NCBI GenBank assembly: GCA_000934665.2
Contig: JYFJ02001605.1
Coordinates: 1 to 64,000, forward strand
Length of the DNA stretch: 64,000 nt
DNA from: Catajapyx aquilonaris
Taxonomy: Eukaryota
Direction of reading: 5' to 3'
The notes below the pieces were generated by a model, which was given only the letters and a program-made list of their open reading frames with translations, did no database searches and was not told the origin of the DNA. Position 1 is the stretch's first letter; every line of letters begins with the position of its first letter. Positions 852-58,651 of this stretch are shown here, in pieces. Made by a program: the position numbers and the translations under genes.

Positions 852-1443
852 CAGGTATCATCTCGTTACAACGAAGCCCGTGGGGCCGGGCAAATCTTTT
901 CGTAATAACGGAATTTCGTTAAATTGAGATTGGTTATTTTTATTTCCCCCACAAAAATGTCAGAATCTGTCAACTCCTGGCACACCTGCACGTCGTCATC
1001 TGCCGCTACAAAATTGTGGAAGGTAACTTCATCTGGTGCATTCAGCGACAGACCTCCACACAGACAAGTCGTCAGGGTCATCTGAGTCTTCAGCGTCCTG
1101 GGCACTCCCCAAAACAGACACTGCTGACCCCTTGACAACTTTTACCCCAACATTTCACGATTGTAGACGGTGTTATGCACGACCACACACTCACTTACCA
1201 CTAGACAGTGCTGGAGCACATGTGGCAGAGCATTGCACTAGTGCATATTTCGTTATATCGGGTTCAATACTAGCCGGGGAACAACCTTTCGTATTCGTTG
1301 TACTGAAAATTTCGTAGTGACACATTTCGTAATAATGGAATTACAAATACATTGCTCTTACAGCTGGCCAACCAAAATTTTATTTTTATTGCGTTCTATT
1401 GAAATTTTGTTGTATTGGTATTCGCTAAAACGAGATTTTACTG
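852..1443. mobile_element. Tigger/pogo-like (Tc1/mariner) MITE
   Basis: TA flanks; left end CAGGTATCATCTCGTTACAACGAA versus right end reverse complement CAGTAAAATCTCGTTTTAGCGAA; subterminal TTCGT repeats. Confidence 0.7.
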
Positions 1444-1504
1444 TATAGCCATTTCCGATTATGGTTGATTTTAATTTCACCTCATTTCACAAACCACTTT
1501 TCAG

Positions 1505-2025
1505 AACCATCCATGAAGATATCGCCTCCATTGGCCCCCACCCCAGCGTCTGCCTCACCAACTCTGCACTGCTCTTACTGTGCTCTGGACTTTAACTCCA
1601 AGGCTGCATTTGCTGCGCATTGCCACTCAGCAGAACACCAGCTGGTTCTTATGTCAGATGAGGGGAGGGATTGGAGACATCGTCCCCCTCCTCGTGGACT
1701 GTCCTCTGATCCTGACTCAGAAGAACCCCCTGCTCTGTGCAGAGAATATGCAGAATGTGGTCAGTGCAGACTTGGTCCTCAGTGTGTTTGGGCTCATGGG
1801 GAGGAGGAACTGAGAGAATGGGGGGAGAGGATGGACTATCGGAGAATCCGACTCCAGAGAGCCCAAGAGGCAAGGCTGTATGGGGGGTCATATGCTGAAA
1901 GGCTTCTGGAGAGATGGTTCCAAGCAGCCAGGCCTCAGGATATTTTAGCTGAGAGAAGGGATGGAGTGCAAGTGGAATGTGGACAACCTATGGCAGTGGC
2001 TGTCGCCACAAAGAACACCGTGCAG
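1505..2025 (+). CDS. HELZ: HELZ exon with C2H2-like and CCCH zinc fingers
   Basis: Acceptor ttttcag|1505, donor CAG|gtgagg at 2026; CSYC...HCHSAEH and [28 protein letters not shown]. Confidence 0.9.
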
Positions 2026-5000
2026 GTGAGGATGTGATATGTGCCATGTGAAGAATACTTTAGTTGACTTTGTGCAATAAAGTCTTGATTATCCAGACTA
2101 AATGGAATTAAGAGATGTGAGGTAATTTTAAGATATTGGTAATACAGAAGCCAGGGTGAAGAGGGGTGGGAATGAAAAATTGCATGATGAAGGAAGTCAG
2201 GATAAGTGCAAATTAAATCCCATGTTTATCAATCTGTATGCAGCAACTACATTCACACCATACTTGTCAGTTTGCATAGCTGGAAAGTTATATGGCACAT
2301 AATTATGTACAAGCCTGCACTCTCAGAAAAAAAGAATAAAGCATATCCACAAGTCGATGTCTCTCTTGAGGCCCTTTTTTAAATGGAGCAGATGTAAGGT
2401 GTTTACTAGATGATTCATGAGCAAAATTTTGAGTTTTTTAGCTAAAATATTTGTGAAGTGCATGCATGTAACTTATCTGGGAGACTTATGAAGTTGTAAA
2501 GTTATTGATAACAGGATAACAGGGTCAATTCGATTTTCTTTTTAGGATTGGACATTCTCAATAAGTGTTGAAGGTGGCAGGCTTCGACGAGTTGCCCTTC
2601 TTTATGATACCCATCGAAACCATTTTGGCATCGAGTCTGCCTCTGACTCAACTGGTCAGCGGTACCAAGTGGAAAACCGCCAAGAATGGCAGCATCCTGA
2701 TGATGATCCTGACCCAACTCCCATTACACTTCAAGTACGAGTGACTTTCCGTACTGATATATTTGGAACTTTTCGCCAGACTGTAGTGTTTGATCCGGGT
2801 TCAAATCCTGTTGTGGTGCGGCATTTGTGTGTTGATGTTGTTCCTCTGACACAGCTGGATAAATTACAGCAAGTGCAGAATGTGACAGCATCACGAGTTG
2901 AGAGATGGGATGAAACGAACTGCCAAACTCTTGAGTTTGTTCCTAGACCGTATCCAATTCCACCTGAAGATAGGCAGTTGCTTGCATTATATCCGTCTGC
3001 CCAAGCATCACGTTTATTGCTGACCCAGAGTGTGCTTGAACCTCGTTTGACCAAAGCTAATTACAGGTCTCGCCTTCATGAGCTTCTCTATGTAGAAGAA
3101 GTTGCTCATTATGAGCAGGTGTCTCGTTACAACCTGAAGGCAAAGTTGGATCTAATTGATCGATACATGCTGATGCCATCAAGTGTGTCAACAGCCAAAT
3201 ATGCACAGGGTGGGCAACTCTTTGCACAAATGAGACTATCAACAGAGGTATCTGAGGACTCGGCTCCAGGAAGGCTAGTACTCAACAGCAGCTCTATGGT
3301 GCTCATGACTTCTTGTGAAAAGGTAAGACATTGGCAGTGTTACGCAGTGTTCATAGATTAATGTGAATTTTAAAGATGTACTTTTCTGTGGAGCTTCTGT
3401 CAATGTTTTTCCATGTTTTGTATGTCTTAAAACACCATAATGTAGATGTGCAGTATGTTTAAAAAAAATATTCATCTCGCTTTTAAAAATTAGGTGGAAA
3501 AGGCCAAGAAGGAGGGAGTCCTTCCTCACGTGTATGAAGCCCTGGTGGAGGATAAGACGAAGATGGTGGTGTATCTTCGCTTGTCCCGAGACATGGTGGA
3601 AGAGTTGGGGTTGCGGCCTGACACCACGCTGATGGCGGAGGTCCAGTTTCAACTCAATAGACTCCCGTTGTGTGAGTGGCACTTTGCCATCGACAGGGTA
3701 CCCAGTCTTCAGATCCTATTTCCGGATATGCTGGTTGAGCCAGTAATTCCATGGACACCACAAAAGTGAGTAGAAATATGAGGAACCCAGTCCAGTTAAT
3801 ATGAGAATGGCAGTTGGTGTGGCAAACTTTCAACTGAAACAAAACTAGTGCAATAGGTCTACATTGCAGGTATGACACAGCACAATGTTAAAGGGACACT
3901 CCACTCAAAATACAAGCTGGGTTCTAAAAATCGAGAAAAAAATCCTGATTCCGAGGGTATAACGAGTTTTTCTGAGAGACGAATGGTAAGGCCAGGGGGA
4001 AAGCTGGAAGTGTATCGTTCGAAAACCGCGCGAGGAGCAGGTTGGGCGCGGGTGGCGAAGCCACCAGAGAAGCGGAACTAGACCAGGGGATGGTGCTTAA
4101 CGTGCTTTCCCCCCGTCCGAGCTAAGTGATGCCTTCTCCGCACCGTTGGGGCTTCTGACTGCCTCGTTAGCCTCCGTATCAGGTCGGGCACTCTTTTTTC
4201 CCATGATATTCGGTCCAGGAACAGTCCCGTCCGTCGGTGTAGTTCCTCGTCTGGCCGCTGGAGGGATTTTCTTCCCATCACTCACTGCGCGGGAGACTAT
4301 TATTTTACGAATCTAACCGTTCGTCTCTCAGAAAAACTGCTTATACCTTCGGAATCAGGATTTTTAGCCCGATTTTTAAAGGCCAACTTGTATTTTGAGT
4401 GGAGTGTCCCTTTAAGAAGTTATTAATTTTCTTGAACATCTTGGAAGATGAAAATGTTCTCTTATGATGTGTTTTGCAAGAGAAGTGTATTCTGCACTTC
4501 TGTTTTAATGTTTAATTGGTGCCTGTTACTGATGTTTTCTTATTTGTACACACAGGCAGTGGAGTGACCGGCTGGACTCTCGCTTAAATCCAAAACAGAA
4601 GGAAGCAGTGGTGGCCATCACCACTCCATTGGACATAATTCTTCCCCCAATCCTGATTATTGGCCCCTTTGGTACTGGGAAGACATACACGTTAGCCCAG
4701 GCTATAAAGCAGCTACTCCAGCAAGAAGGGACGCGCATATTGGTCTGCACACATTCCAACTCAGCTGCCGATTTGTACATCAAGGAGTACCTCCACCCAT
4801 ACGTGCAGGACCAGAACCATCCAGAGGCCAAGCCTCTCAGGGTCTACTACCGGAATAGATGGGTGGCCACAGTCAACACCACTGTGCAACAGTATTGCCT
4901 GATTGAAACTGAAGGCGGGTCAAGGTTCTTCCGAAACCCCTCACTGCAAGAGGTATATTTTCTCTCTCAGATCATTGCTCTTAAGGTGCGTTCACATATA

Positions 5001-8000
5001 CGCGATTTTGACCAAAAGCGAGCGAATTCGCGTCTGGTCAAAGGCATTCACGTATTGGCGATTTTCTCCTAGACGCGAGCAAATTTTGGTCACTCACGCG
5101 ACTAAACTAAAAATCGTGCTCCTCTGTCAGAGCCAGAGCGAAGCGAATATTTGATGCAAGTGAATGTTGGAGCTGGTTCGAGCCACCCAGAGCCGCCACG
5201 TGGACTTGTCGGCCTTCCTTGGCCATGTTGGGAATGCGGATGCTCGAGCTCGGAAGTTACATATTTTTTTGTCGCAAACTCCCGACCCGGGCAGTCTCCG
5301 AACCACGTCCAGCTCTTGCCCCACTTGGTGCACTGTGACCTGGATGCCCTTCCGAGGTCGGTTCAGCAGCATTTTCACTGCCATGCCGGCTGCCTCCGCA
5401 GCACAGGGCTCCGCCATCTTTCTCATCCCAAGACCTCCCCCTGCCCACACGACCCCGACCCGTCCTCCCTCCAACCTGCCCTGCTGCACAGCGCATGCTC
5501 ATAACTAACGAGTAAGTTTTATCGCCTAGCTGATACGTGAATGCCCGGAAATTTTTCAAAAAATTCGCTCGCGACGTTATGTAAAAAATTGCTCGCAAGT
5601 GTTCATTCGCGTATATGTGAACACACCTTTAGACACATTTTAGATGTTGGCTGCTCAAATTGTTGAAAATTTGTTACAAAATTAACTGATAATTTACCAT
5701 CACTTGAGCTGAACTACACTGTACTCCCGATTATCCGGGTGCGGAATATCCATGCATCACCAAAAAATAATATTTTAAATTAAAAGTTCGAAAAATGGGT
5801 CAAATTTTCGTCCCACAGCTAGATACTGCTAACTAGCAGTGGGACGAAAATTCAACCCACGGACAATGTCTCGCCAAAGAAGAAATATAAAAGACCTCTT
5901 CTAGAAGCCAAAGTAAGAATCTGTGGTAAGTTGTATTATTCTGATTCAACCAAGCAGCATACATTCTGTAGCTCATTTTTATGGTGTCTATAGGATAATT
6001 TTTCTATTATTATGTGTGTTTTCCAATTATGGGAAACACCAGTGCCGCCATTAGCGCGGATAATCTGGAGTACAGTGGATTTTAATGGGGCAGATTTCCA
6101 GTTGTTTTGCAACAACCAAACTCTTGGTTCTTATTGTGCCAAATGTTTTTCTAAAAACTCAAGTCATAAATATTTTGTGCAGTTTTTTCCTATTGGAAGA
6201 ACTTGCCACAACAGCACCATCAAAGTTTTGCCAAATTGTATTTAAAGTAGCATTTAATCAGCACCAGTTGCGACCAGCCTTCATTTTCCTTATATGGTGA
6301 TTAATTTCTCAACTAGGAGATCACCACTACTTCCATATTTTTGTCCAACTACAGGTGACCTCTCACCGTGTGATAGTGGCAACCTTAAGCACTTCTCGCC
6401 AACTAGCACAGCTGGGACTTCCACGAGGCTTCTTTACCCACATCTTGCTAGATGAGGCAGCCCAGTCTATGGAGTGTGAGGCCTTGCTGCCGCTTGGTCT
6501 GGCAGGACAGTCCACTCGAGTGGTTCTGGCAGGAGATCACATGCAGCTCTCACCAGAAGTGTGCTCTCCATTTGCCAGAGAAAAGAAACTTCATGTCTCA
6601 ATGCTGGAGAGGCTGTATGATCTGTACCCACCAAACTTTCCATGCAAGATTCTCCTGTGTGAAAATTACAGGTCCCATGAAGCCATTGTCCAGGTAAGAG
6701 ATCTGCCTTACACTGTTACATGTGTTTATGGCAAGGGGTTAACCCCCCTGTCACTCTCCCTCTTTTCCCGTGAGCATAGCTGATCTCCCCCACCGAGGGG
6801 GATTGGCCACGGTTGGTGCTAGAATCACTTACCGAAATGGCGGCCAACTCTGAACCATTTTGGTTGACTCCGATTGGCTGGAGTTTTAAAATACCTCCTG
6901 TGCTCTTTTAACCGATATACTACCTCCAGCTAATCAGAGTCGACCCTAAAGGTTCAGAATTGCTTCGCTAGGTAGGATGCCACCATCTTGGTAAGTGAAT
7001 CTAGCACCGACCGTGGCCAATCCCCTTTGGTGGGGGAGATCAGCTAAGCTCACAGGGGTATCAATGTACTGGTATAGGGATTGACTGGGGGGTCGGTTAA
7101 CCACGTGACTGTAAAGTGTACACGGAGTACCAAAATTCAAGGAGTACCTGGGAGTACCACTGCAGGTGTACGCCGGAGTACCCAAGTTGTTAACCCCTTG
7201 GTTTAGGGCAGGTTATAGAAGACTCGGGTTAGGTCACTCCCCACCCACCCCCTGCCGAGGGGTTTTGCAGTGGGTGCTCACTTGAGAGCGCCATGAGACA
7301 TTTCCCAGAGCATTTATGTGGCGACCCTACCGGACTAGGCTGAACTTTATAGGTACGAAAGGGGAGGGCTACATTGGGGGGCCCAACATGGCGGCTATGT
7401 CGGGCCAGCATGTAGCGCTTCCCTTTCATTCCTATAAAGTTCAGCATAGTCCGGTAGGGTCGCCACATAAATGCTTTGGGAAATGTCTCATGGCGCTCTC
7501 AAGTGAGCACCCACTGCAAAACTCCTCGGCAGGTGATAAGCCCAGAACGTAGGGGTAGTGTCCATGGGCTGGTTTAGGGGCTTGCATTCTCCAACGACCT
7601 TGATAGTTATGCCAGTGGTAGTCTACTCTCAGGGTCATCGAAGTCAAATAGATCTTTGTGGGGGGGGAGTTTTACTAACCTAATCAGTAATAACTAATAC
7701 TAACCTAAATAAGATCCTTTACATTGTTGGATTAGGCAATGATCCAAGTGATCTACTGGTGAATTTGTGTAAAATTCAGTTCTGATATATGGGGTAAATT
7801 CAGGCTTTGTTTGCCCAATCCACATTGCCAAAATATTTCGGGAAGTTTTATTTCAGCTTGCGCAAGAGGTATTCTCTGGAGCTGGATTACAGTTACAGGC
7901 ACAGTGATGCAACCTAATTGCAACTTGTGTATCTTTTCAGTACACTTCTGAGCTGTTTTATGATCGGAAGCTGATCTGCAGTGGGAAGCAGCCTCGTCAT

Positions 8001-9722
8001 GATGAATTTTTTCCGCTAACATTTTTCACTGCCCGAGGTGAAGATGTTCAAGACACAAATTCCACTGCATTTTACAACAACTCGGAAGTATATGAAGTTG
8101 TGGAGCGAGTTGTTGAACTGAGGAAAAAGTGGCCATCTAGCTGGGGACCATTGGAACAAGACAATGGGATTGGTGTTTTGACACCATATTCTGATCAAGT
8201 AGTCAGAATCCGAGCTGAGTTACGGAAAAGGCGCCTGTATGGAGTTTCAGTGGAGCGTGTGTTGAATGTGCAAGGGAAACAATTCCGGGCAGTGTTTCTC
8301 AGCACTGTTCGCACAAGGAACACTTGCATGTCAAAGGCTGAGGCCGAAGAAGAGCTGGATTATGGCTTCTTGAGCAATGCCAGGTTACTGAACACAGCAG
8401 TCACTCGGGCTCAGTCACTTGTAGCTGTAGTTGGAGATCCTGTTGCCTTGTGCTCTGTCGGAAGGTGCCGCAGATTGTGGGAACGCTTTCTGGATCTTTG
8501 CCAGAATCAGCGCTCTCTCTATGGCCTTACCTGGTCTGGTTTGAAAGCACTGTTGGCTGGAGTTGAGCTGAGGAAACCATACTTACTCAACCCATTGGCA
8601 CCTGAGTTTGTGCCCCGCCTCCATGCAGTTCCAGCTGGTTATTATTACCAACAGTTCTGCCCAGGGGCTGCCCAAGGACCATCCATGGCCCCGCCTCATC
8701 CACCTCCACCCCAACATGCCATGGTACTTCCAGCCCACTTTGCTGCTCCTCCACCAGCAGCAGTACCATTTCCAACTGTCTACCCACCACATATAATGGC
8801 ACCCCCTGGACCTGCCCCTGGACCACCTCCAGCTTATTTGGCTTCCAATGTGCTCTACAGACCAGCTGTTGCTGCAGCAGCTGCTGCAGCCTACTACAAC
8901 CCGCAATTTGGTGGGTTTCCATACTACCCTACACCATACTGGATGAAAGTGCCACCTGCTGTAGGGCCAGCACCTGGTCCTGGGCCAGGACCTAGTCCTG
9001 GATCAGCGCCAGTTTCAACACCAGGACCACCTTTCAATCAACTGTTGGCACTGGTAAGTGAATGACACAAGGAAACTGCTTGGATCCTCCCCATCGGGTG
9101 GGTGGAAAATTATGGCACAGGTAAATTGTAGACCAGGAACTCTTTGGTGAATATTGAAAAGTAATGCCGTGCGTGCATTTTCAAGCGTTTAGTAAAAGTA
9201 GGTTACACTGTAATGCCAGTCACTTGATCTGGGCAGTGATAAGACAACATGGTTTTTGCGCCTCACTGAAAAATGCCAGCATACTGTGTGACTTGTGGAC
9301 TTCATCAATGACTTCCTGGCTTTGACATTACCTGTGATGTCATTTTCATACCCATTGCAAGGAAGCATCCAGCTACTCTCCGATTTGCATAAGTCCGAAC
9401 CTTTTCGCGTATACATACGCTCGAGGGGGTGAGCCACCACAAAATTCGTCCCCGGTATCGCTGGTTTTCTCGAAGAAACTGTGCTGCTACGTGTAATTCA
9501 AATGCCTAGTTATCATGGGCAGCCCATGCGGTAGCTGCAGCGCTACGCAAACTGCACATTTTGATGTGAGGAGCGGTATGGCCCGTCATGGTGGTGGGCA
9601 CTACTTTCGGGTGTATGGATATCCAAAAAGGTTCTGACTTATGCAAATCGGAGAGTAGTTTCATTGTTAGTAATGTGTGTTCTGACATTATTTGACATTG
9701 CAATGCTCTTACAGCAACATCA

Positions 9723-9753
<31 letters not shown>

Positions 9754-10035
9754 CAACAGCAGCAGCAACAGCAACAATTGCTGCTGCGCTCACCTGTTTT
9801 GCGCCGGTCTATCGCCAGCAAGATGCCAGTGAGTACTGCACCACCTGTGTCACGACCTGAACCTCCTGGAAACTTCATCTCTGCCCCACCTGGATTTGGA
9901 AATTCCACAATACGCCCCAACAACAATGTCATTTCCAATAACAATCGCTGTGAGCAAGCCAAGGGGCCAGTGGTGCAGTTCCTTCACAATGTTCATTTTC
10001 CAGAGGGTAGTGTTCACCAACAAAGGGCAGCAGCA

Positions 10036-10070
<35 letters not shown>

Positions 10071-10893
10071 GCAGCAACAGCAACAGCAGCAACAACAGCA
10101 GCAGCAGCAAAGGGAGCGGCCCAACTCACTGAATCAGCTCAATAATGAGGAGCCCTTATTACCACATGACATGGATGCTCGATTGCTAGCAGAATCACAT
10201 GCCCATCAGCTGCGGTGGTACACACATCTTTTGGCCACCAGGGGTTCACGAGCTGCCAATAGATTCTTGGAGATGATGACAGTTGCAAGTGAGGAAGCCA
10301 TGTCTTCTGCCTCTGGTAACTGTCAGCCTGCACTGCCAACTCCAGATGTTGTTCGTAAGCTTGAAGATTTAATTAGTGACAAGTCTCCATCAACGCCCAG
10401 TTTCCCAAATGGGGATGGTGGTGCTGCGCGGTGGCCACGAGAAGAAGATTCCGCACCAAGTTGGGCCACTATACGTAAGCCATTAACAGTGCAGGAGGTT
10501 GAGGCATCCATGATGGATTCACGCCGCCCCATCCGAGTGTCACCTGGCAATTGCTTTGAACCATCATGGATGTCTGGCAATGGTGGGTTTGAACAGAAGG
10601 CCCCAAGTCAAGCGGCATTGGCCGATGGTTTATTTGCAATCGGTCATTGTGATCGCCGTCAGGAGGTATCGCAACCCACTTACGCCAACGTGTTGCGGCA
10701 GGCAGCTCGACGTGAGCAGGTGTCTCCAACACAACCTCAGGGTTACCAGAACCAGGTTGGAGCCACTACATCGGGCAATCCTCAAGCAGGATTTGGAAGT
10801 GGCACTAGAGACAAGCCAACTTACACTGTACTGAACAGCCTGAGGGCTCGAGATTCTCAGAATGCACCTGGGTTTTACAAGTACTTTTCCTAA
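1505..10893 (+). CDS. HELZ: HELZ-like helicase with zinc finger (SF1, UPF1-like), 5'-partial; join(1505..2025,2546..3322,3494..3765,4556..4952,6355..6693,7941..9053,9715..10893)
   Basis: All six introns are GT-AG with compatible phases (0,0,2,0,0,0). CCCH finger, Walker A GPFGTGKT, Walker [35 protein letters not shown]2 motif [10 protein letters not shown] and a low-complexity tail ending GFYKYFS. Confidence 0.93.
2546..3322 (+). CDS. HELZ: HELZ exon (259 codons)
   Basis: ttttag|GATTGG to AAG|gtaaga; [13 protein letters not shown] and [14 protein letters not shown] motifs of the HELZ/MOV10 group. Confidence 0.9.
3494..3765 (+). CDS. HELZ: HELZ exon
   Basis: tag|GTGGAA to CAAAA|gtgagt (phase 2); [19 protein letters not shown]. 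Confidence 0.9.
3892..4411. mobile_element. Kolobok-like MITE (TTAA TSD, AG...CT termini)
   Basis: TTAA at 3888-3891 and 4412-4415; ~95 bp imperfect TIRs AGGGACACTCCACTCAAAATACAAG / CTTGTATTTTGAGTGGAGTGTCCCT. Confidence 0.85.
4556..4952 (+). CDS. HELZ: HELZ exon with Walker A
   Basis: cacag|G completes the phase-2 codon; [17 protein letters not shown] (4662-4685), CTHSNSAAD; donor GAG|gtatat. Confidence 0.93.
4984..5628. mobile_element. PIF/Harbinger-like MITE
   Basis: TTA TSD (4981-4983, 5629-5631); TIR AGGTGCGTTCACATATACGCG / CGCGTATATGTGAACACACCT; CpG-rich interior. Confidence 0.85.
5717..6077. mobile_element. Tigger/mariner-like MITE
   Basis: TIR CACTGTACTCCCGATTATCCG / CGGATAATCTGGAGTACAGTG; TA on the left side only; internal hairpin AATTTTCGTCCCAC...GTGGGACGAAAATT (~5802-5851). 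Confidence 0.7.
6355..6693 (+). CDS. HELZ: HELZ exon with Walker B (DEAA)
   Basis: acag|GTGACC to CAG|gtaaga; [28 protein letters not shown]. Confidence 0.93.
6732..7200. mobile_element. hAT-like MITE carrying a nested foldback element
   Basis: 12-bp TIR CAAGGGGTTAAC / GTTAACCCCTTG; 8-bp TSD GTTTATGG (6724-6731) versus GTTTAGGG (7201-7208), one mismatch; GGAGTACC subterminal repeats. Confidence 0.7.
6770..7053. mobile_element. Foldback/MITE with long TIRs inside the hAT-like element
   Basis: TAGCTGATCTCCCCCACC...GTGCTAGAATCACTTACC pairs with GGTAAGTGAATCTAGCACC...GGTGGGGGAGATCAGCTA; pairing continues inward (GATTGGCTGGAG / CTCCAGCTAATC). Confidence 0.75.
7251..7533. repeat. Long near-perfect palindrome (foldback element)
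   Basis: CCTGCCGAGGGGTTTTGCAGTGGGTGCTCACTTGAGAGCGCCATGAGACATTTCCC is mirrored by GGGAAATGTCTCATGGCGCTCTCAAGTGAGCACCCACTGCAAAACTCCTCGGCAGG; the ORF track shows near-identical peptides on opposite strands (7229-7468 minus, 7316-7552 plus). Confidence 0.9.
7941..9053 (+). CDS. HELZ: HELZ exon with helicase C-terminal motifs, PAM2 and proline-rich region
   Basis: ttttcag|TACACT to CTG|gtaagt; [44 protein letters not shown]. Confidence 0.93.
9376..9655. mobile_element. MITE with TA TSD (Tc1/mariner-type)
   Basis: TA|CTCTCCGATTTGCATAAGTCCGAACCTTTT ... AAAAGGTTCTGACTTATGCAAATCGGAGAG|TA. Confidence 0.8.
9715..10893 (+). CDS. HELZ: HELZ terminal exon (polyQ-rich tail)
   Basis: ttacag|CAACAT in phase 0; Q19 (9721-9777) and Q25 (10036-10110); ends GFYKYFS then TAA. 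Confidence 0.85.
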
Positions 10894-15144: not shown

Positions 15145-15606
15145 TAAGACATTAGGATCCCATTTTCATGAGGGGACCTATTATGTTGGGGTAGACTTGG
15201 ATAGCCAAGTTGGCTTTTGGTTCATTGAACCACCATTTGACTAGCGGGGTTCTAGGGTTGAGGTGATGCAACTAGTTCTAAATGAAGTTGGGAGCTGTTG
15301 TTCTGGACTGTCTGATATTACACTGTACAGTGCCTCAATTATGACAGCCAAGATATTTTTAGGGAAACTAGGATTAGCAATAGATGACTACTGTTCTTGG
15401 CGCAGTACCGTATTAGATGAGGGCGTCCGAATGGCCCGGTACACCCGTGGCGCCCTCTGCAAATCGAAACATTCGTACGCGCCCGTTCGAACAGAAAACA
15501 ACAACAACACTGCTAGGAGACGAAGGGATAAGTAGGTGTGCGAAGCATCTGAATGTCGAAATCTGGCTGGGATTGAATCTGCAAGGGCGTTGGCTCTCAC
15601 CTGGAG

Positions 15607-18600
15607 ATGCACCGGACCACGCTCAGGCGGATCGGGCGGGACGTGTGCCTGCTCCAGAGGCCGCCCAACTTAATCGCATGGACCAGGCTCATCGGTGGGT
15701 ACCGCAAACTAGGATTAAGCAGACACGGTTACATTTCCTAGCCGTGCTTCACTTATGATCCGTGTGTTCTTTACAGAAGTGTTCCTATTCTCATTATAGG
15801 GTTGGTGTCTCTTGGGATAGGTGCACTCATGTCGGATACAGCAGGTGCAGTACATAACTTCTTTTTACCTGATTATATGTGCTTGTTTCAGTGTAATGTT
15901 GGATATAAGCCACCAATAAAATTAAAATACATATTTTATTTATTAGATGGGAATCAGTGGGTGAAGATGAGCGCCAACTGCTTCCATTAAGTCAGTTGAC
16001 ACATAATTTCGTGTATGTTATTGACAATATCTGTTATACAAATAGTAGAGATTCCTACTCGATGCAATGCAACATGCATTTCGATTTTCGTGTGGTGATT
16101 TTTTAATAAATTACCACACGAAAACCTGGTTGCTTGGCTAACAGTGAATCCAGAACAAGTTGTTGATCCTTTTTAATTGTTGATAATCATCACCATCACG
16201 ACATTTCCCATATAAGGGGTAGTCAGCGATGATGGGACGAGCTGCAAGCTAACCCAACATGTCAATAACAATATTATACGCAAAGAATAGCAAAGATTCA
16301 CTTGGACGTAGGCTGCTATTGATCATGCAACTCACCCTGAAAAGCAATTTCATTGATGCTTGTTTAGTACCTTCAAATAATTTTGTGATGAGAGATGCAA
16401 AAAGTCGACTTTTGCAAGCTTTTGCAGTCCTTCATGATATTTATAGCAGTGTTGTAACACCTTGTGTTACATATAGCTCATTTGTCAGATTTGTGCTAGT
16501 TGTGGTTTACCTCGATGCTAGTCACAATGTTTATTTGCAGATATCACCCATTGTTGACTCTGAGATCCCTCCATCCCAAACTAATTTCTTTTCCAAATCT
16601 AGAGAACTTCCTCATGAAGTTGGCTGTCCTTCTTGGTACTTCTGCTGTTGGTGTCTTCCTTCTTGGCCACTGGGAAGAATGTGAGGCTGATCGTAGAACC
16701 AAAATGATCTACCTTAGGAAGTTCAACTGGTTCAACAAGCTGAGGGGAGACAAGACGCCAAGAGGAGGCCAGCAGAGCGAGATTCCTACAGAGGATGTGG
16801 CAGATGTGCAGGTGCAGGGTCCATCTGGTCAGGCATCAAACCTACCTGTTTTGGTGGCATTGTTACAATCAGGAGATGTGGTGCCACTTCTGGAGCCTTC
16901 GATTGAAGAGACACCTCTGTCAGTATATGTTATAAGCTCATACATTTTATCAGAAGAATTTACCAGCCAGACATGAAAAGCAATATCAATAACATAATAT
17001 ATTATACTGTATCATGTTATTGATATTGCTTTTCTTGTCATGTTGTTGCTCCACAGTATCATTTCATATAGGATTTGCCTCAGAAAGAACTAGTGTGACG
17101 GTTGACCTACAGATTAGTGGGCTTCTACTTTCCAAATTGCTTTCCATGTCAGTCGGACTTACTGTTAGTGGATTTCTGTTGTATGCCCATGATATATTAA
17201 TACATCCCACACATGAAACTGACTGGCAAAGTCTCCTGATGCAAGATGTGCGAAGATAAATTATTATGTACAGTGCAGCATCGATTATCCGAACAGAGTC
17301 TGCCCAGAGGGTGTTCGGATAACTGATTGTTCGGATAACCGATCATTTTGTGGAAAAAAATTGTACCGTTGTCGTAGGCGCAATATGAAACTAAGAAACA
17401 GTGATATTAACCACAAAACTGTATATTTTCTGTCACAGGCATGCCCTTAAAATACTGTACATATACAGGGTGGGGTAAAAGTCATGGGCTGGTTTAAACG
17501 ACGCAGCATGGCGTAAGTAACGAACTATTATATTTTCATAAAATTGCACTACACAGAGAAAGATCTGCCATTTATGGATCAAGGTCCAAAAAAGTCACTT
17601 CTTGAAAACAACACCAGAGAGATGTCCACCTTTGCGGGCAACACCCCGCCAGACAAAACCCTTCATAACGCGCTGCAGCATGTCCAGGGAAATGTTTCTC
17701 ACGGCGTGTCTTATCTGATCCTTAAGATCAGCCAATGACTGAGGACGTGTGGCGAACACCAAACTCTTCAGGTACCCCCACAAGAAGAAGTCGGGGGTGG
17801 TCAAATCCGGCGGCCGCGACGGCCAAGGAATGTCCCCAAATCTCGAAATGACCCTCCCAGGAAACACTTGACTTTTAATTTGTTCCGTGTTCGCCACACG
17901 TCCTCAGTCATTGGTTGATCATAAGGATCAGATAAGACACGCTGTGAGAAACATTTCCCTGGACATGCTGGAGTGCGTTATGAAGGGTTTCGTCCGGCGT
18001 TTGGAGGAATATATGTTGCCCGCAAAGGTGGACATCTATCCGGTGTTGTTTTCAAGAAGTGACTTTTTTTGACCTTGATCCATAAATGGTATATCTTTCT
18101 CAGTGTAGTGCAATTTTTAAAAAATACAATTATTTGTTACTTACGCCATGCTGCTTCGTTTAAACCACCCCATGACATTTGCCCCACCCTGTACCTTACT
18201 GTCCTTACATGAAGTAGTCCTACAGTTTAGGGGGGAAAAGGCGTTTTTTTTTCTTCTTCTTTCTTTTCTTTCTTTTTTCTTTTTTTTTCTTTCTTTGCTG
18301 ACCCGAAAACGTTCGGTTAACCATTGGTTCAGTTGATCGGTGTTCGAATAATCGTTGCTCCACTGTATTGTAATTTTAATTTTTGTAAATTTGTTTTACT
18401 CAATATGCTCCAACTGAACTAACCAAAGGAAATTTATTTTTATTTAAAGGAGTATATTTTTCAGTGTTCTCTCTAAACATTGGTGCACTTGCCCCACTGG
18501 AAACTGAATTTTAAAATGTTTTTGTTATGGAAGCCCCTTCTTGCTCAGGGAGCCTCCACCACACATTTAACCACTTTGCCAAGTGAGAACTTTCCAGCCA

Positions 18601-19432
18601 GAGTATTTTTATTGCATGGTCAAAGAAGTAGACGCTGCTTACAAAAGCTCCATTTACAAAACTGGTAAGGACAAAGGTCACATGCAGGCGCTGGGCCAGG
18701 GGGGATGAGTGCAAGGCCTGCACACAACTTTTGTACTTGTCAGTTTTAAGACCTCCCATGTAAAACTCAACAGTGGCATAAATTATGACCCATGCAATGT
18801 AAGAAAAATGCACATCTTTTGGCCTGGGAGGTTTTGACACATTCCCTTTAGTCCTGACCTTACAACCAGTGACTTCTAACTCGGTTATCCCTGAAAAAAT
18901 GATCTGGCTGGAAAGTTATTGGAAGAAGAGGGGAAAGTTGCAGTCGTGGCTCCATGTGCAAGGAATGGCTTCCCCTCTCCAAGGGTCTTGAAAACTTAGT
19001 CGTCTGGTGGAACAGGTGCATTATTGTATCTAGAGAACATCATGAAAAATGGCAAGTATGGTGTAATTTCATTTGACTATTTCAGTTGAATCATTTTCAT
19101 TAAAATACATTTAAAAAATTAAAATCACAGTTCATAAGGATTTGTTCTGTCACTGTCTGATTTTAGATCTTTCCGAACATTTGGCATTTTTATTGTTATT
19201 ATTGCTGTTGCACAGGGAATTGCATGATTTTGCGGACCTCTTGAAGGGCTTCCTTAAGCTGAATCGCGTGGAGACTGTAACCAATTCTGGGGACGACTCC
19301 ACTTCTGAGGAAGATTTCCAGGAAGCTTCACAACATGTGGGACCAAGCAATCCAGGCAGCATCAACCAAGAGCGAGAAAGTGACCTGCTTACCACCCGTG
19401 AAACCATCAAATTGTTGTCTGATGATAACTGA
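15607..19432 (+). CDS. CYBC1: CYBC1/EROS-like (cytochrome b-245 chaperone 1) membrane protein, 221 aa; join(15607..15694,15800..15844,16603..16918,19216..19432)
   Basis: GT-AG introns in phases 1,1,2 give 666 nt in frame. Colinear similarity to the human EROS sequence as I remember it: LLQRPPNLIAWTRLIG/LHLKRAPGIRSWSLLVG; GLVSLG/GILSIG; KL...GHWEECEAD...LRKFNWFNKL/KL...EDWEEAIFD...LKTFSLYKKL; EDVADVQV/HDVRDVSV; LQSGDVVPL/LATGFSYPL; ADLLKGFLKL/AKLITSFLEL; acidic tail. The exon 2 donor (GTGCAG) is weak. Confidence 0.78.
17271..18365. mobile_element. Tigger/pogo-like MITE (outer element of a nest)
   Basis: TA|CAGTGCAGCATCGATTATCCGAAC ... GTTCGAATAATCGTTGCTCCACTG|TA; GTTCGGATAAC subterminal repeats. 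Confidence 0.8.
17466..18191 (-). mobile_element. Deleted Tc1/mariner element with ~300-bp inverted arms and a transposase C-terminal remnant
   Basis: TA|CAGGGTGGGG...CCCCACCCTG|TA; minus-strand 17595-17897 encodes FPGRVISRFGDIPWPSRPPDLTTPDFFLWGYLKSLVF, matching the WPxxSPDLxPxDFFLWG transposase motif. Confidence 0.9.
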
Positions 19433-19637
19433 ATCTTTAAAATCCACCCCCAAACAAACATTAACAAACTTGCAGATCATTAAGTGAGATGACATATATT
19501 TTGCAATGTAGGATAGACTATTTTTGTTATGTTAACATGAAGAGTTTAGCACGTTTTATGTTTAAAAAGACTGACCCTTGTTGATTGAAGTGAATATATT
19601 CACCAAATTTAAATTTTCTATATACTGTTATTGTTAT

Positions 19638-19643
19638 AATAAA
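19638..19643 (+). terminator. Polyadenylation signal of the CYBC1-like gene
   Basis: AATAAA ~205 nt after the TGA, followed by GT-rich sequence. Confidence 0.55.
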
Positions 19644-57389: not shown

Positions 57390-58651
57390 ATGCAGGCCGC
57401 TAAGGTAGATTAACTTTCAATTAAGTGCTGTTTTTTTCAATAAGTGTTAGTGACTATACATATTTGGTTTCTAGCTGCTCATTGTCCTCCTTGGCCTCGT
57501 GGCCCTCTCTTCTGCCGTACCCGTGAAGGTCTACGATTACTACGTAAGTATCGACCCTCCCTTGTGACGTTACCTTCCCAAAAATTTTTATTCTGCTGCA
57601 TTCACTTAGAGTTGGGAGTTGGGGGGTCTAGAGAGGGGGGGCTACCTCCTCCCTGCTCTCTATAATAGATGGTCCTTTGCACCACATTCTGTGGGGGTCA
57701 CGACCGCTTTGCATGTCGGGACTTGGGGGTGGGGATTGAGGGGCTAAACCTTCCAGGATCTTGTAATTCCTCCCCCTTTGGGCCCCGTGAGAAGAGCCGC
57801 ACCTGACGCTTTTCTTGACGTGGGGATTTATTTTCACGAGCTACTAGGGGAGGTAGAGAGGATGGAAAATAAGCGGAGTTAGCCTCTGTGAAGCAACCAG
57901 CCTAAATCACATTGTTACATATAGAGGATGGCCAGCTATCTCACGAATATTTTGATCAGAGTCACCTGAGCGAAAGTGTCCAAAATTTCGGCCTAACTAA
58001 CCGAGGAAAGCACTTTCGCGGTTCCTTCCCAAAAGACTAGGAGGGACCACGGGAGTGCCGGAAGTTTTCGTAACAAAGTGGAAGAAAGAAACCGAAAGGG
58101 ACGTACTTGTTTCCTTTTTTTTTTCACGTAGCTAGGGATAAAAATGAGGCGGTTGCGGTCGGTGGCGGGAAGGAAGGAAACCGGAGGGAGGGAAGGGCGG
58201 GGAGGGAAGAAAGTCGTGAACTTGTCCCTGGAGAGAGTTGGTTTTGTGGGAGGTCGGGGTAGAAGGAGTGAAAGTGGGTGAGGAAGGAAGAGTCAACACA
58301 AGCGTTTTTTTGCAGTCGGTACCTCACTACTCGTACAAGTACGGAGTTGAGGATAAGCATACCGGAGATAAGAAGACAGCATGGGAGACCAGGGAAGGCA
58401 AGGTGACCAAGGGAGCTTACAGCCTGGTTGAGCCTGATGGCACCATCCGTGTTGTTGAGTACCATGATGATGGACACAGTGGATTCAACGCCGTCGTCAA
58501 GAAGATCGGACATGCCCACCATCCTTCTCACGGACATCACCATGAGTGAGTATTACCTGACCACAGCATTGTTGGACCAAATTGCTGAACCGTGTTCTTG
58601 TTTAGTGGCGGTGCCGGTGGTGGATTCGGTGGATTCGATGGTGGATTCTAA
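57390..58651 (+). CDS. RR-2 cuticular protein (Chitin_bind_4), 119 aa; join(57390..57404,57475..57543,58316..58545,58606..58651)
   Basis: Signal peptide [76 protein letters not shown] matches the extended Rebers-Riddiford RR-2 consensus; His-rich then GGF-rich tail; GT-AG introns in phases 0,0,2. Confidence 0.93.

What the first reader, a model, noticed from the sequence alone, without database searches (positions are those of the whole stretch)
15607..19432. Hidden four-exon EROS/CYBC1-like gene in an arthropod
Seen: four exons splice in frame to a 221-aa protein with two N-terminal hydrophobic segments, a WEE motif and an acidic tail; the ORF track shows only fragments of it. Established: mammalian EROS (CYBC1) is an ER chaperone needed for gp91phox/NOX2-p22phox and also affects P2X7 levels, and Drosophila lacks NOX2, p22phox and P2X receptors. 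Inference: this lineage either retains a p22phox-dependent Nox or P2X client, or uses EROS for an undescribed client. The sequence is very divergent and could easily be left unannotated.
Basis: partly seen in the sequence, partly recalled or inferred. Interest (0 to 1): 0.8.

Follow-up and report, generated by a model that had tools for sequence, protein, structure and literature searches.

The report
Arthropod EROS chaperone without NOX2 client
A real, spliced gene for a distant relative of the human membrane-protein chaperone EROS sits in an arthropod genome where its classic partners (NOX2, p22phox) were not found but two ATP-gated P2X channels and a NOX4-type oxidase were, which suggests that EROS has an older job helping one of these to mature.

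Summary
The gene is real. Four GT-AG exons give a 221-aa protein. One public run shows junctions 15694/15800 and 15844/16603, and a contig that starts exactly at acceptor 19216; the donor at 16918 is not covered. Exon 3 hits only human EROS among 177,635 PDB sequences (8kei_D, E 0.07-0.11, 28 of 96 columns identical). The Atlas ranks Ycf4 (0.93) and EROS (0.89) above TMEM249 (0.84). Intron 2 matches a human CYBC1 splice junction in codon and phase. Against: Pfam and large homologue searches found nothing, and the fold prediction failed. The genome shows no p22phox or NOX2 (weak negatives), but holds two tandem P2X genes and one NOX4-art-like gene. Only 2 of 15 NOX2-contact residues are kept. 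Best reading: a vertically inherited EROS orthologue (about 0.88) acting as an ER chaperone, with P2X the likelier client and NOX4-art the runner-up. No binding was shown. It is a new member of a known family, useful because it separates EROS from NOX2/p22phox.

The parts
15479..15606 (+). 5' untranslated region, at least this long
   Evidence: X1 contig covers 15479-15660 without differences; in-frame stop 11 codons upstream of the ATG
15607..15694 (+). Coding exon 1 (codons 1-30): N-terminal segment and start of TM helix 1
   Evidence: junction seen
15695..15799 (+). Intron 1, 105 nt, GT-AG, phase 1 in codon 30
   Evidence: skipped in an X1 contig
15800..15844 (+). Coding exon 2, 45 nt: rest of TM helix 1 and the short loop
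   Evidence: both flanking junctions in one X1 contig
15845..16602 (+). Intron 2, 758 nt, GT-AG, phase 1 in codon 45; equals human codon 43 / c.127 in register
   Evidence: register +2; c.127 lies at an exonic splice junction (PMC6202333)
16603..16918 (+). Coding exon 3: TM helix 2, WEE, most of the PH-like domain
   Evidence: only PDB hit is 8kei_D; Atlas Ycf4/EROS; 16601-16764 covered in X1
16614..16898 (+). Stretch aligned to human EROS residues 47-141 (28 of 96 columns identical)
16671..16679 (+). WEE motif, residues 68-70, identical to EROS W66-E68
16919..19215 (+). Intron 3, 2297 nt, GT-AG, phase 2 in codon 150; donor inferred; holds a TA-flanked inverted-repeat element
   Evidence: acceptor supported by the contig start at 19216
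19216..19432 (+). Coding exon 4: predicted counterpart of EROS helix H4, then an acidic Ser/Thr-rich tail and TGA
   Evidence: X1 contig 19216-19538 at depth 53; helix equivalence inferred from the +2 register and H4 = R147-L161 (PMC11161758); no PDB hit on its own
19638..19643 (+). First AATAAA after the stop, candidate polyadenylation signal
   Evidence: use not shown

Best explanation
The gene is the single-copy, fast-diverged arthropod orthologue of EROS/CYBC1 (about 0.88 for orthology alone). Shown: spliced transcript, two-helix hairpin, WEE, collinear similarity to EROS 47-141, one shared intron. Inferred from the mammalian protein: it sits in the ER membrane by its hairpin, with the split PH-like domain in the cytosol, and binds a newly made multi-pass client to protect it from degradation until it is glycosylated and assembled. 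NOX2 and p22phox are not found here, so the client must be another protein. The likeliest is the pair of P2X channels on contig C737, because mammalian EROS binds and stabilises P2X7 and raises P2X1, and because the residues that grip NOX2 are mostly not kept. The confidence given is for the whole chain including the P2X client.
For: Splicing. Sole PDB hit 8kei_D at E 0.11 and 0.074, conditional E 8e-7 and 5e-7 for a target named in advance. Atlas: Ycf4 0.93 with 185 of 256 features, EROS 0.89 with 169, TMEM249 0.84 with 130 (one source). Intron 2 in codon 45 phase 1 against human c.127/codon 43. Single copy. Two P2X genes, 7 exon matches of 7 candidates, best E 1e-52, long open exons, W.KGYQ, KVKG, NFRYA and RRTLHKV.G motifs in both copies; best hits are arthropod P2X at 39-44%. 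EROS binds P2X7 directly and raises P2X1 (PMC9767466). 2 of 15 listed NOX2-contact residues within 47-141 are identical (Q99, G133), and R118/Y119 of the heme-contacting loop are not kept. NOX2-like genes and p22phox are reported absent from arthropods (PMC5372347; PMC11721785).
Against: No Pfam hit for 3 of 3 exons tested or the exon-3 ORF; PF15169 found 0 candidates in this genome. 0 of 50 candidates scored in the word-based search; the HMMER scan of 1.84 billion proteins gave only 2 hits, both repetitive and unrelated. Exons 1 and 4 give no PDB hit alone. The database-wide E-values (0.07-0.11) and the Atlas EROS score (under 0.9) are lead-level on their own. Mammalian EROS did not affect P2X4, and the arthropod channels are annotated P2X4-like. 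The contact-residue depletion (13% against 29%) rests on 15 sites and a low-identity alignment and is not significant by my estimate. EROS also binds NOX4 in yeast two-hybrid, and a NOX4-like gene is present. Co-occurrence across species was not tested: this is one genome.
Confidence: 0.45

Rival explanations
1. True EROS orthologue whose main client is the p22phox-independent NOX4-art on contig C2249. EROS would supply part of the stabilising role that p22phox plays for vertebrate NOX4.
For: C2249 holds a compact NOX with no EF-hand or peroxidase part seen in the stretch read, both heme-His pairs, an E-loop SHNPGC with a second Cys (human NOX4 THPPGC, PMC5372347) and a C-terminal E-x-F. Human EROS binds NOX2, NOX3 and NOX4 but not NOX5 in two-hybrid tests and raises NOX4 on co-transfection. 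PMC5372347 proposes an unidentified protein acting on NOX4-art.
Against: EROS knockout did not change nox4 in mouse kidney and heart. NOX2-contact residues are mostly lost (2 of 15 kept). NOX4-art is active in Aedes cells; that mosquitoes lack EROS is my recollection and was not tested. The NOX4 label rests on motifs, not on a tree.
Confidence: 0.25
2. True EROS orthologue with a client not known from mammals, for example one of the expanded divergent DUOX-like proteins or another ER multi-pass protein.
For: The genome has 9 divergent DUOX-like loci besides two ordinary DUOX; strong sequence divergence; a longer tail than human EROS (221 against 187 aa).
Against: DUOX has its own maturation factor, and DuoxA matches lie on 11 contigs here. 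Two known client classes are already present.
Confidence: 0.15
3. Not an EROS orthologue but another member of the Ycf4/EROS/TMEM249 split-PH superfamily, with a different role.
For: The Atlas ranks Ycf4 and a bacterial cluster above EROS and lists TMEM249. Earlier scan notes report this fold widely in bacteria (unchecked here). No Pfam hit.
Against: The only sequence-level hit is EROS, with WEE and the DVxDVxV pattern. The intron-2 position is shared with human CYBC1. TMEM249 scores lower (130 against 169 features).
Confidence: 0.08
4. The lineage has kept a p22phox and NOX2-like pair that the searches or the fragmented assembly missed, and EROS does its textbook job.
For: The own-genome search is insensitive: it missed this very gene with PF15169 and missed C2249 with PF08022. 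The assembly has 20,583 contigs.
Against: Three NOX-domain searches gave no NOX2-like locus; PF05038 gave 0 matches from 1 candidate; p22phox was found in no arthropod genome of a 95-genome survey.
Confidence: 0.04
5. The 3' part of the model is wrong: exon 4 belongs to another transcript, or exon 3 ends elsewhere.
For: Exon 4 depth in X1 is 53 against 3-7 for exons 1-3, and junction 3 was not seen; donor 16918 is weak.
Against: Contig depth is a poor measure of expression; the frame is continuous only through donor 16918; exon 4 starts with the helix expected at that point in EROS; no Pfam hit for the other long ORFs tested nearby.
Confidence: 0.03

Closest known systems
Human/mouse EROS (CYBC1, C17orf62; Pfam PF15169; PDB 8KEI chain D)
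   Same: Two short N-terminal TM helices, WEE, beta-rich PH-like part, C-terminal helix, Ser/acidic disordered tail; 28 of 96 columns identical over EROS 47-141 at a constant +2 offset; an intron at the same codon and phase in the loop between the helices.
   Different: 221 against 187 aa, from a longer tail; below Pfam's cut-off exon by exon; 13 of 15 NOX2-contact residues differ, including R118/Y119; no intron between codons 45 and 150; no NOX2 or p22phox found in the genome.
Ycf4 (photosystem I assembly factor, PF02392)
   Same: Top Atlas neighbour (0.93, 185 of 256 features); reported homologue of EROS (PMC5379978).
   Different: Plastid and cyanobacterial; no sequence hit to it in Pfam or PDB here; this is a spliced nuclear animal gene.
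TMEM249 (PF15158)
   Same: Listed among Atlas neighbours (0.84).
   Different: Fewer shared features (130) than EROS (169); no Pfam or PDB sequence hit.
NOX4-art system of arthropods (PMC5372347)
   Same: The genome has a NOX4-like gene and no detectable p22phox, as described for arthropods.
   Different: That study proposes an unknown partner; EROS did not appear in the passages and sections I read.

Membership tests
EROS/CYBC1 | Match to Pfam PF15169 above the 27-bit cut-off | tested here: inconclusive
   No hit for single exons or the exon-3 ORF and 0 candidates in the genome; the full spliced protein was not scanned.
EROS/CYBC1 | Best sequence similarity is to EROS | tested here: met
   Only hit of 177,635 PDB sequences at E <= 10; weak in absolute terms (16 bits); no reciprocal search.
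EROS/CYBC1 | Two N-terminal TM helices with a short loop (human H1 21-40, H2 47-61) | tested here: met
   Hydrophobic windows 22-44 and 46-68 (PMC11161758); hydropathy only.
EROS/CYBC1 | PH-like domain split by the hairpin (fold) | tested here: inconclusive
   Single-sequence model of exon 3 had pLDDT 45.7; Atlas neighbours are Ycf4, EROS, TMEM249 and PH-type families.
EROS/CYBC1 | Shared intron positions with CYBC1 | tested here: met
   1 of 3 introns could be checked against print and matches (codon 45 = 43, phase 1). Human boundaries after c.85 and c.443 are recalled, would match introns 1 and 3, and were not confirmed.
EROS/CYBC1 | Ser-rich/acidic disordered C-terminal tail | tested here: met
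   25 of the last 51 residues are D, E, S or T; feature described in PMC5379978. Low specificity.
EROS as NOX2 chaperone | Conserved NOX2-contact residues and a NOX2/p22phox client in the genome | tested here: not met
   2 of 15 contacts identical; no p22phox or NOX2-like locus found (weak negatives).
EROS/CYBC1 | ER localisation and client stabilisation | not testable with these tools
   Needs expression and binding assays.
TMEM249 | Closer to TMEM249 than to EROS | tested here: not met
   Atlas 0.84/130 against 0.89/169; no PF15158 hit.
NOX4-art (gene on C2249) | No EF-hands, four heme His, E-loop H-x-x-G-C, VxGPFG, C-terminal E-x-F | tested here: met
   Read against PMC5372347 section 7; VxGPFG appears as VDGPFA; no tree built, the PDB gave only DUOX1 and NOX2 hits.

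The most novel reading that the evidence does not exclude
EROS is older than, and independent of, the NOX2-p22phox system. In arthropods, which lost both, it survives as the unidentified partner that matures p22phox-less NOX4-art, as well as or instead of P2X, and EROS loss across arthropods tracks the patchy loss of these clients.
Probability: 0.25. Interest if true: 0.75.

Novelty: new member of a known kind. Interest (0 to 1): 0.52.

Why it matters
EROS is known as the chaperone whose loss causes one form of chronic granulomatous disease, and its second client class (P2X7, P2X1) is poorly understood. An orthologue in an animal without NOX2 and p22phox is a natural experiment on its ancestral client. 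It yields two cheap tests. One is whether the EROS-P2X link predates vertebrate P2X7. The other is whether EROS is the missing NOX4-art partner proposed in PMC5372347. The residues shared across this distance (WEE, the DVxDVxV strand, G133, P137-L138) mark the fold core, while the NOX2-specific contacts vary. The gene escapes Pfam exon by exon, so other arthropod orthologues may be unannotated.

Tried and rejected
Pfam scans of single exons and the exon-3 ORF: no family. PF15169 on the own genome: 0 candidates, and no control genome rang. Word-based homologue search: 0 of 50 candidates. HMMER over 1.84 billion representatives: 2 hits, both repeat-rich and unrelated, rejected; human EROS itself scores only 16 bits, so this blank says nothing on arthropod orthologues. 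PDB searches with exons 1 and 4: nothing. AlphaFold2 on exon 3 without an alignment: pLDDT 45.7, discarded; no fold search was run on it. No complex prediction was run, because only exon fragments of the candidate and of its clients were available. No RNA holder was listed as such; X1 is judged to be RNA from its GT..AG skips. The gap at 16765-16918 in X1 is not evidence either way. Two small in-frame exon candidates in intron 3 (18553-18582, 18584-18664) have no X1 cover and were not adopted. 7tm_6 search for lineage: 2 weak matches of 15 candidates, inconclusive. The HELZ tree puts the window outside the neopteran insects on a long branch and cannot place it further; no named crustacean, myriapod or wingless-hexapod rows were in it. 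Searches for printed human exon boundaries beyond c.127 failed. One search was too loose (113,231 papers; none of the 15 listed held the chaperone term).

Full report
Observation. Introns fall in codons 30 and 45 (phase 1) and 150 (phase 2). Two hydrophobic segments (22-44, 46-68), WEE at 68-70 and an acidic Ser/Thr-rich tail are present. One public run holds the stretch (kind not on record). Its contigs skip introns 1 and 2 exactly at GT..AG, cover 128 nt upstream of the ATG, and one begins at the first base of exon 4. So 2 of 3 junctions are seen, and the third is supported at its acceptor only. Donor 16918 is the only 1 of 4 nearby GT sites that keeps the frame but is a weak site. The higher contig depth on exon 4 (53 against 3-7) is unexplained; 3' bias is my guess. 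The gene is single-copy at the sensitivity.

Identity. Exon 3 alone returns one hit among 177,635 PDB sequences, human EROS 8kei_D (E 0.11). The ORF around it aligns to EROS 47-141 with 28 of 96 columns identical and the same +2 offset at both ends (E 0.074, conditional E 5e-7). These E-values are weak for a blind search, but EROS was named before any search. The ESM Atlas ranks Ycf4 (0.93) first, EROS at 0.89 with 169 of 256 features and TMEM249 at 0.84 with 130 (one source, and under 0.9 is a lead only). Ycf4 is the reported homologue of EROS (PMC5379978, passages). The helices match the human structure, H1 21-40, H2 47-61 and H4 147-161 (PMC11161758, parts 1-2 of 5); the start of exon 4 falls where H4 is expected. 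An independent line is gene structure. Human c.127 (codon 43, first base) lies at an exonic splice junction (PMC6202333, passages) whose loss retains the intron after exon 4 (10.1101/331454, passages). At the +2 offset this is codon 45, phase 1, exactly intron 2 here; the five residues between the intron and the aligned stretch are assumed ungapped. I recall human boundaries after c.85 and c.443 that would match introns 1 and 3, but searches did not confirm them. Against the identity: no Pfam hit, no relatives in two large searches, no hit for exons 1 or 4 alone, and a failed fold prediction. The full spliced protein was not scanned. I put orthology at about 0.88.

Lineage. The window holds a Chitin_bind_4 cuticle gene (E 4e-14) and a HELZ gene 47-49% identical to both spider and insect proteins. 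In a 41-row tree HELZ lies outside the neopteran insects on a long branch. It is an arthropod outside Neoptera; the group was not determined.

Clients in the genome. PF05038 (p22phox) gave 0 matches from 1 candidate. Three NOX-domain searches (11 of 12, 13 of 25 and 10 of 14 candidates matched) gave, by my reading of motifs with recalled family labels and no tree: two DUOX (C19, C28), one NOX5 (C428), nine divergent DUOX-like loci, and one NOX4-like gene (C2249). None looks like NOX2. These negatives are weak, because the same tool missed the EROS gene itself and one search missed C2249; it did find DuoxA readily. They agree with print: NOX2-like genes were lost in Ecdysozoa and p22phox was found in no arthropod (PMC5372347, passages and sections 7 and 11; PMC11721785 and PMC9421330, passages). 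C2249 has the features listed there for NOX4-art. Two tandem P2X genes lie on C737. Their best hits are spider, horseshoe crab and ostracod channels, and a dragonfly protein is also in the list, so they are arthropod-type and not obviously a contaminant. Papers describe P2X as lost in insects but kept in Daphnia, shrimp and tick (PMC7016195; 10.1101/2020.11.20.392001; passages).

Mechanism. Mammalian EROS binds immature NOX2 in the ER and shields it, binds P2X7 directly, raises P2X1 but not P2X4, binds NOX4 in two-hybrid tests and raises it on co-transfection, but does not control nox4 in mouse kidney or heart (PMC9767466, passages; PMC13296129, passages). Of 15 NOX2-contact residues listed for EROS 47-141, 2 are identical here, against 29% overall, and the R118/Y119 pair that reaches the inner heme is gone. 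This is suggestive only. I infer an ER chaperone for a non-NOX2 client: P2X 0.45, NOX4-art 0.25, unknown client 0.15, not an orthologue 0.08, hidden NOX2/p22phox 0.04, wrong 3' model 0.03. No binding, localisation or cross-species co-occurrence was shown.

Novelty. EROS orthologues are reported in all vertebrates, sponges and sea urchins. I found no paper on an arthropod EROS (listings only; one search was too loose to count for much), and the term EROS does not occur in the two recent NOX/ROS evolution papers I searched. The library lacks most subscription papers, automated database annotations in other arthropods could not be checked, and the supplements of the evolution papers were not read. 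The scan's own notes hold no arthropod EROS with P2X; they report the EROS/Ycf4 fold in bacteria, which lowers the weight of fold likeness alone.

Verdict. A real gene and a new, divergent member of a known family, expected by vertical descent. Its value is that it isolates EROS from NOX2/p22phox and offers two concrete, testable clients. Interest 0.52; the NOX4-art-partner reading would merit 0.75 at probability 0.25.

Noticed in passing
G000:C737:33879-43098 (L001-L007, L043, L044): Two tandem P2X receptor genes on the minus strand, with a short duplicated segment after exon 1 of each; most invertebrates are described with one P2X gene. A dragonfly (Ladona fulva) P2X protein appears, although papers state that insects lost P2X.
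   Followed up: partly
G000:C2249 (L042:3867-6365, minus strand): NOX4-art-like gene with E-loop SHNPGC and C-terminal E-x-F; missed by the FAD_binding_8 search, found by the other two.
   Followed up: partly
G000 contigs C2148, C5764 (2), C3471, C5623, C3423 (2), C4589, C2062 (L010, L011, L013-L018, L027): Nine divergent DUOX-like loci with altered NADPH-binding glycine motifs, plus DuoxA matches on 11 contigs: the oxidase paralogues and their maturation factor seem to have expanded together. Earlier notes cover the DUOX paralogues; the DuoxA expansion was not in the 8 of 13 notes shown.
   Followed up: partly
window 17466-18191: 726-bp TA-flanked element with terminal inverted repeats and a transposase-like remnant (Tc1/mariner type by recalled motif; no Pfam hit) in intron 3. 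An X1 contig at depth 153 skips it, so it is probably inserted in another repeat whose other copies lack it.
   Followed up: partly
window 1429-10893 (+): HELZ orthologue with CCCH finger, SF1 helicase, PAM2 motif and long polyQ tracts, 4.7 kb upstream of the EROS-like gene on the same strand. Human HELZ and CYBC1 both lie on distal 17q (HELZ position recalled), many megabases apart; possibly an old linkage, possibly chance.
   Followed up: partly
window 58220-58549 (+): Chitin_bind_4 cuticle protein exon with a His-rich end.
   Followed up: partly
window 19216-19538: Exon 4 and 3' UTR contig has depth 53 in X1 against 3-7 for exons 1-3; a low-depth contig also covers intron 3 at 18915-19178. 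Unexplained.
   Followed up: no
window 20000-58000: No Pfam family among the long ORFs tested here: a gene-poor stretch or a large intron.
   Followed up: partly
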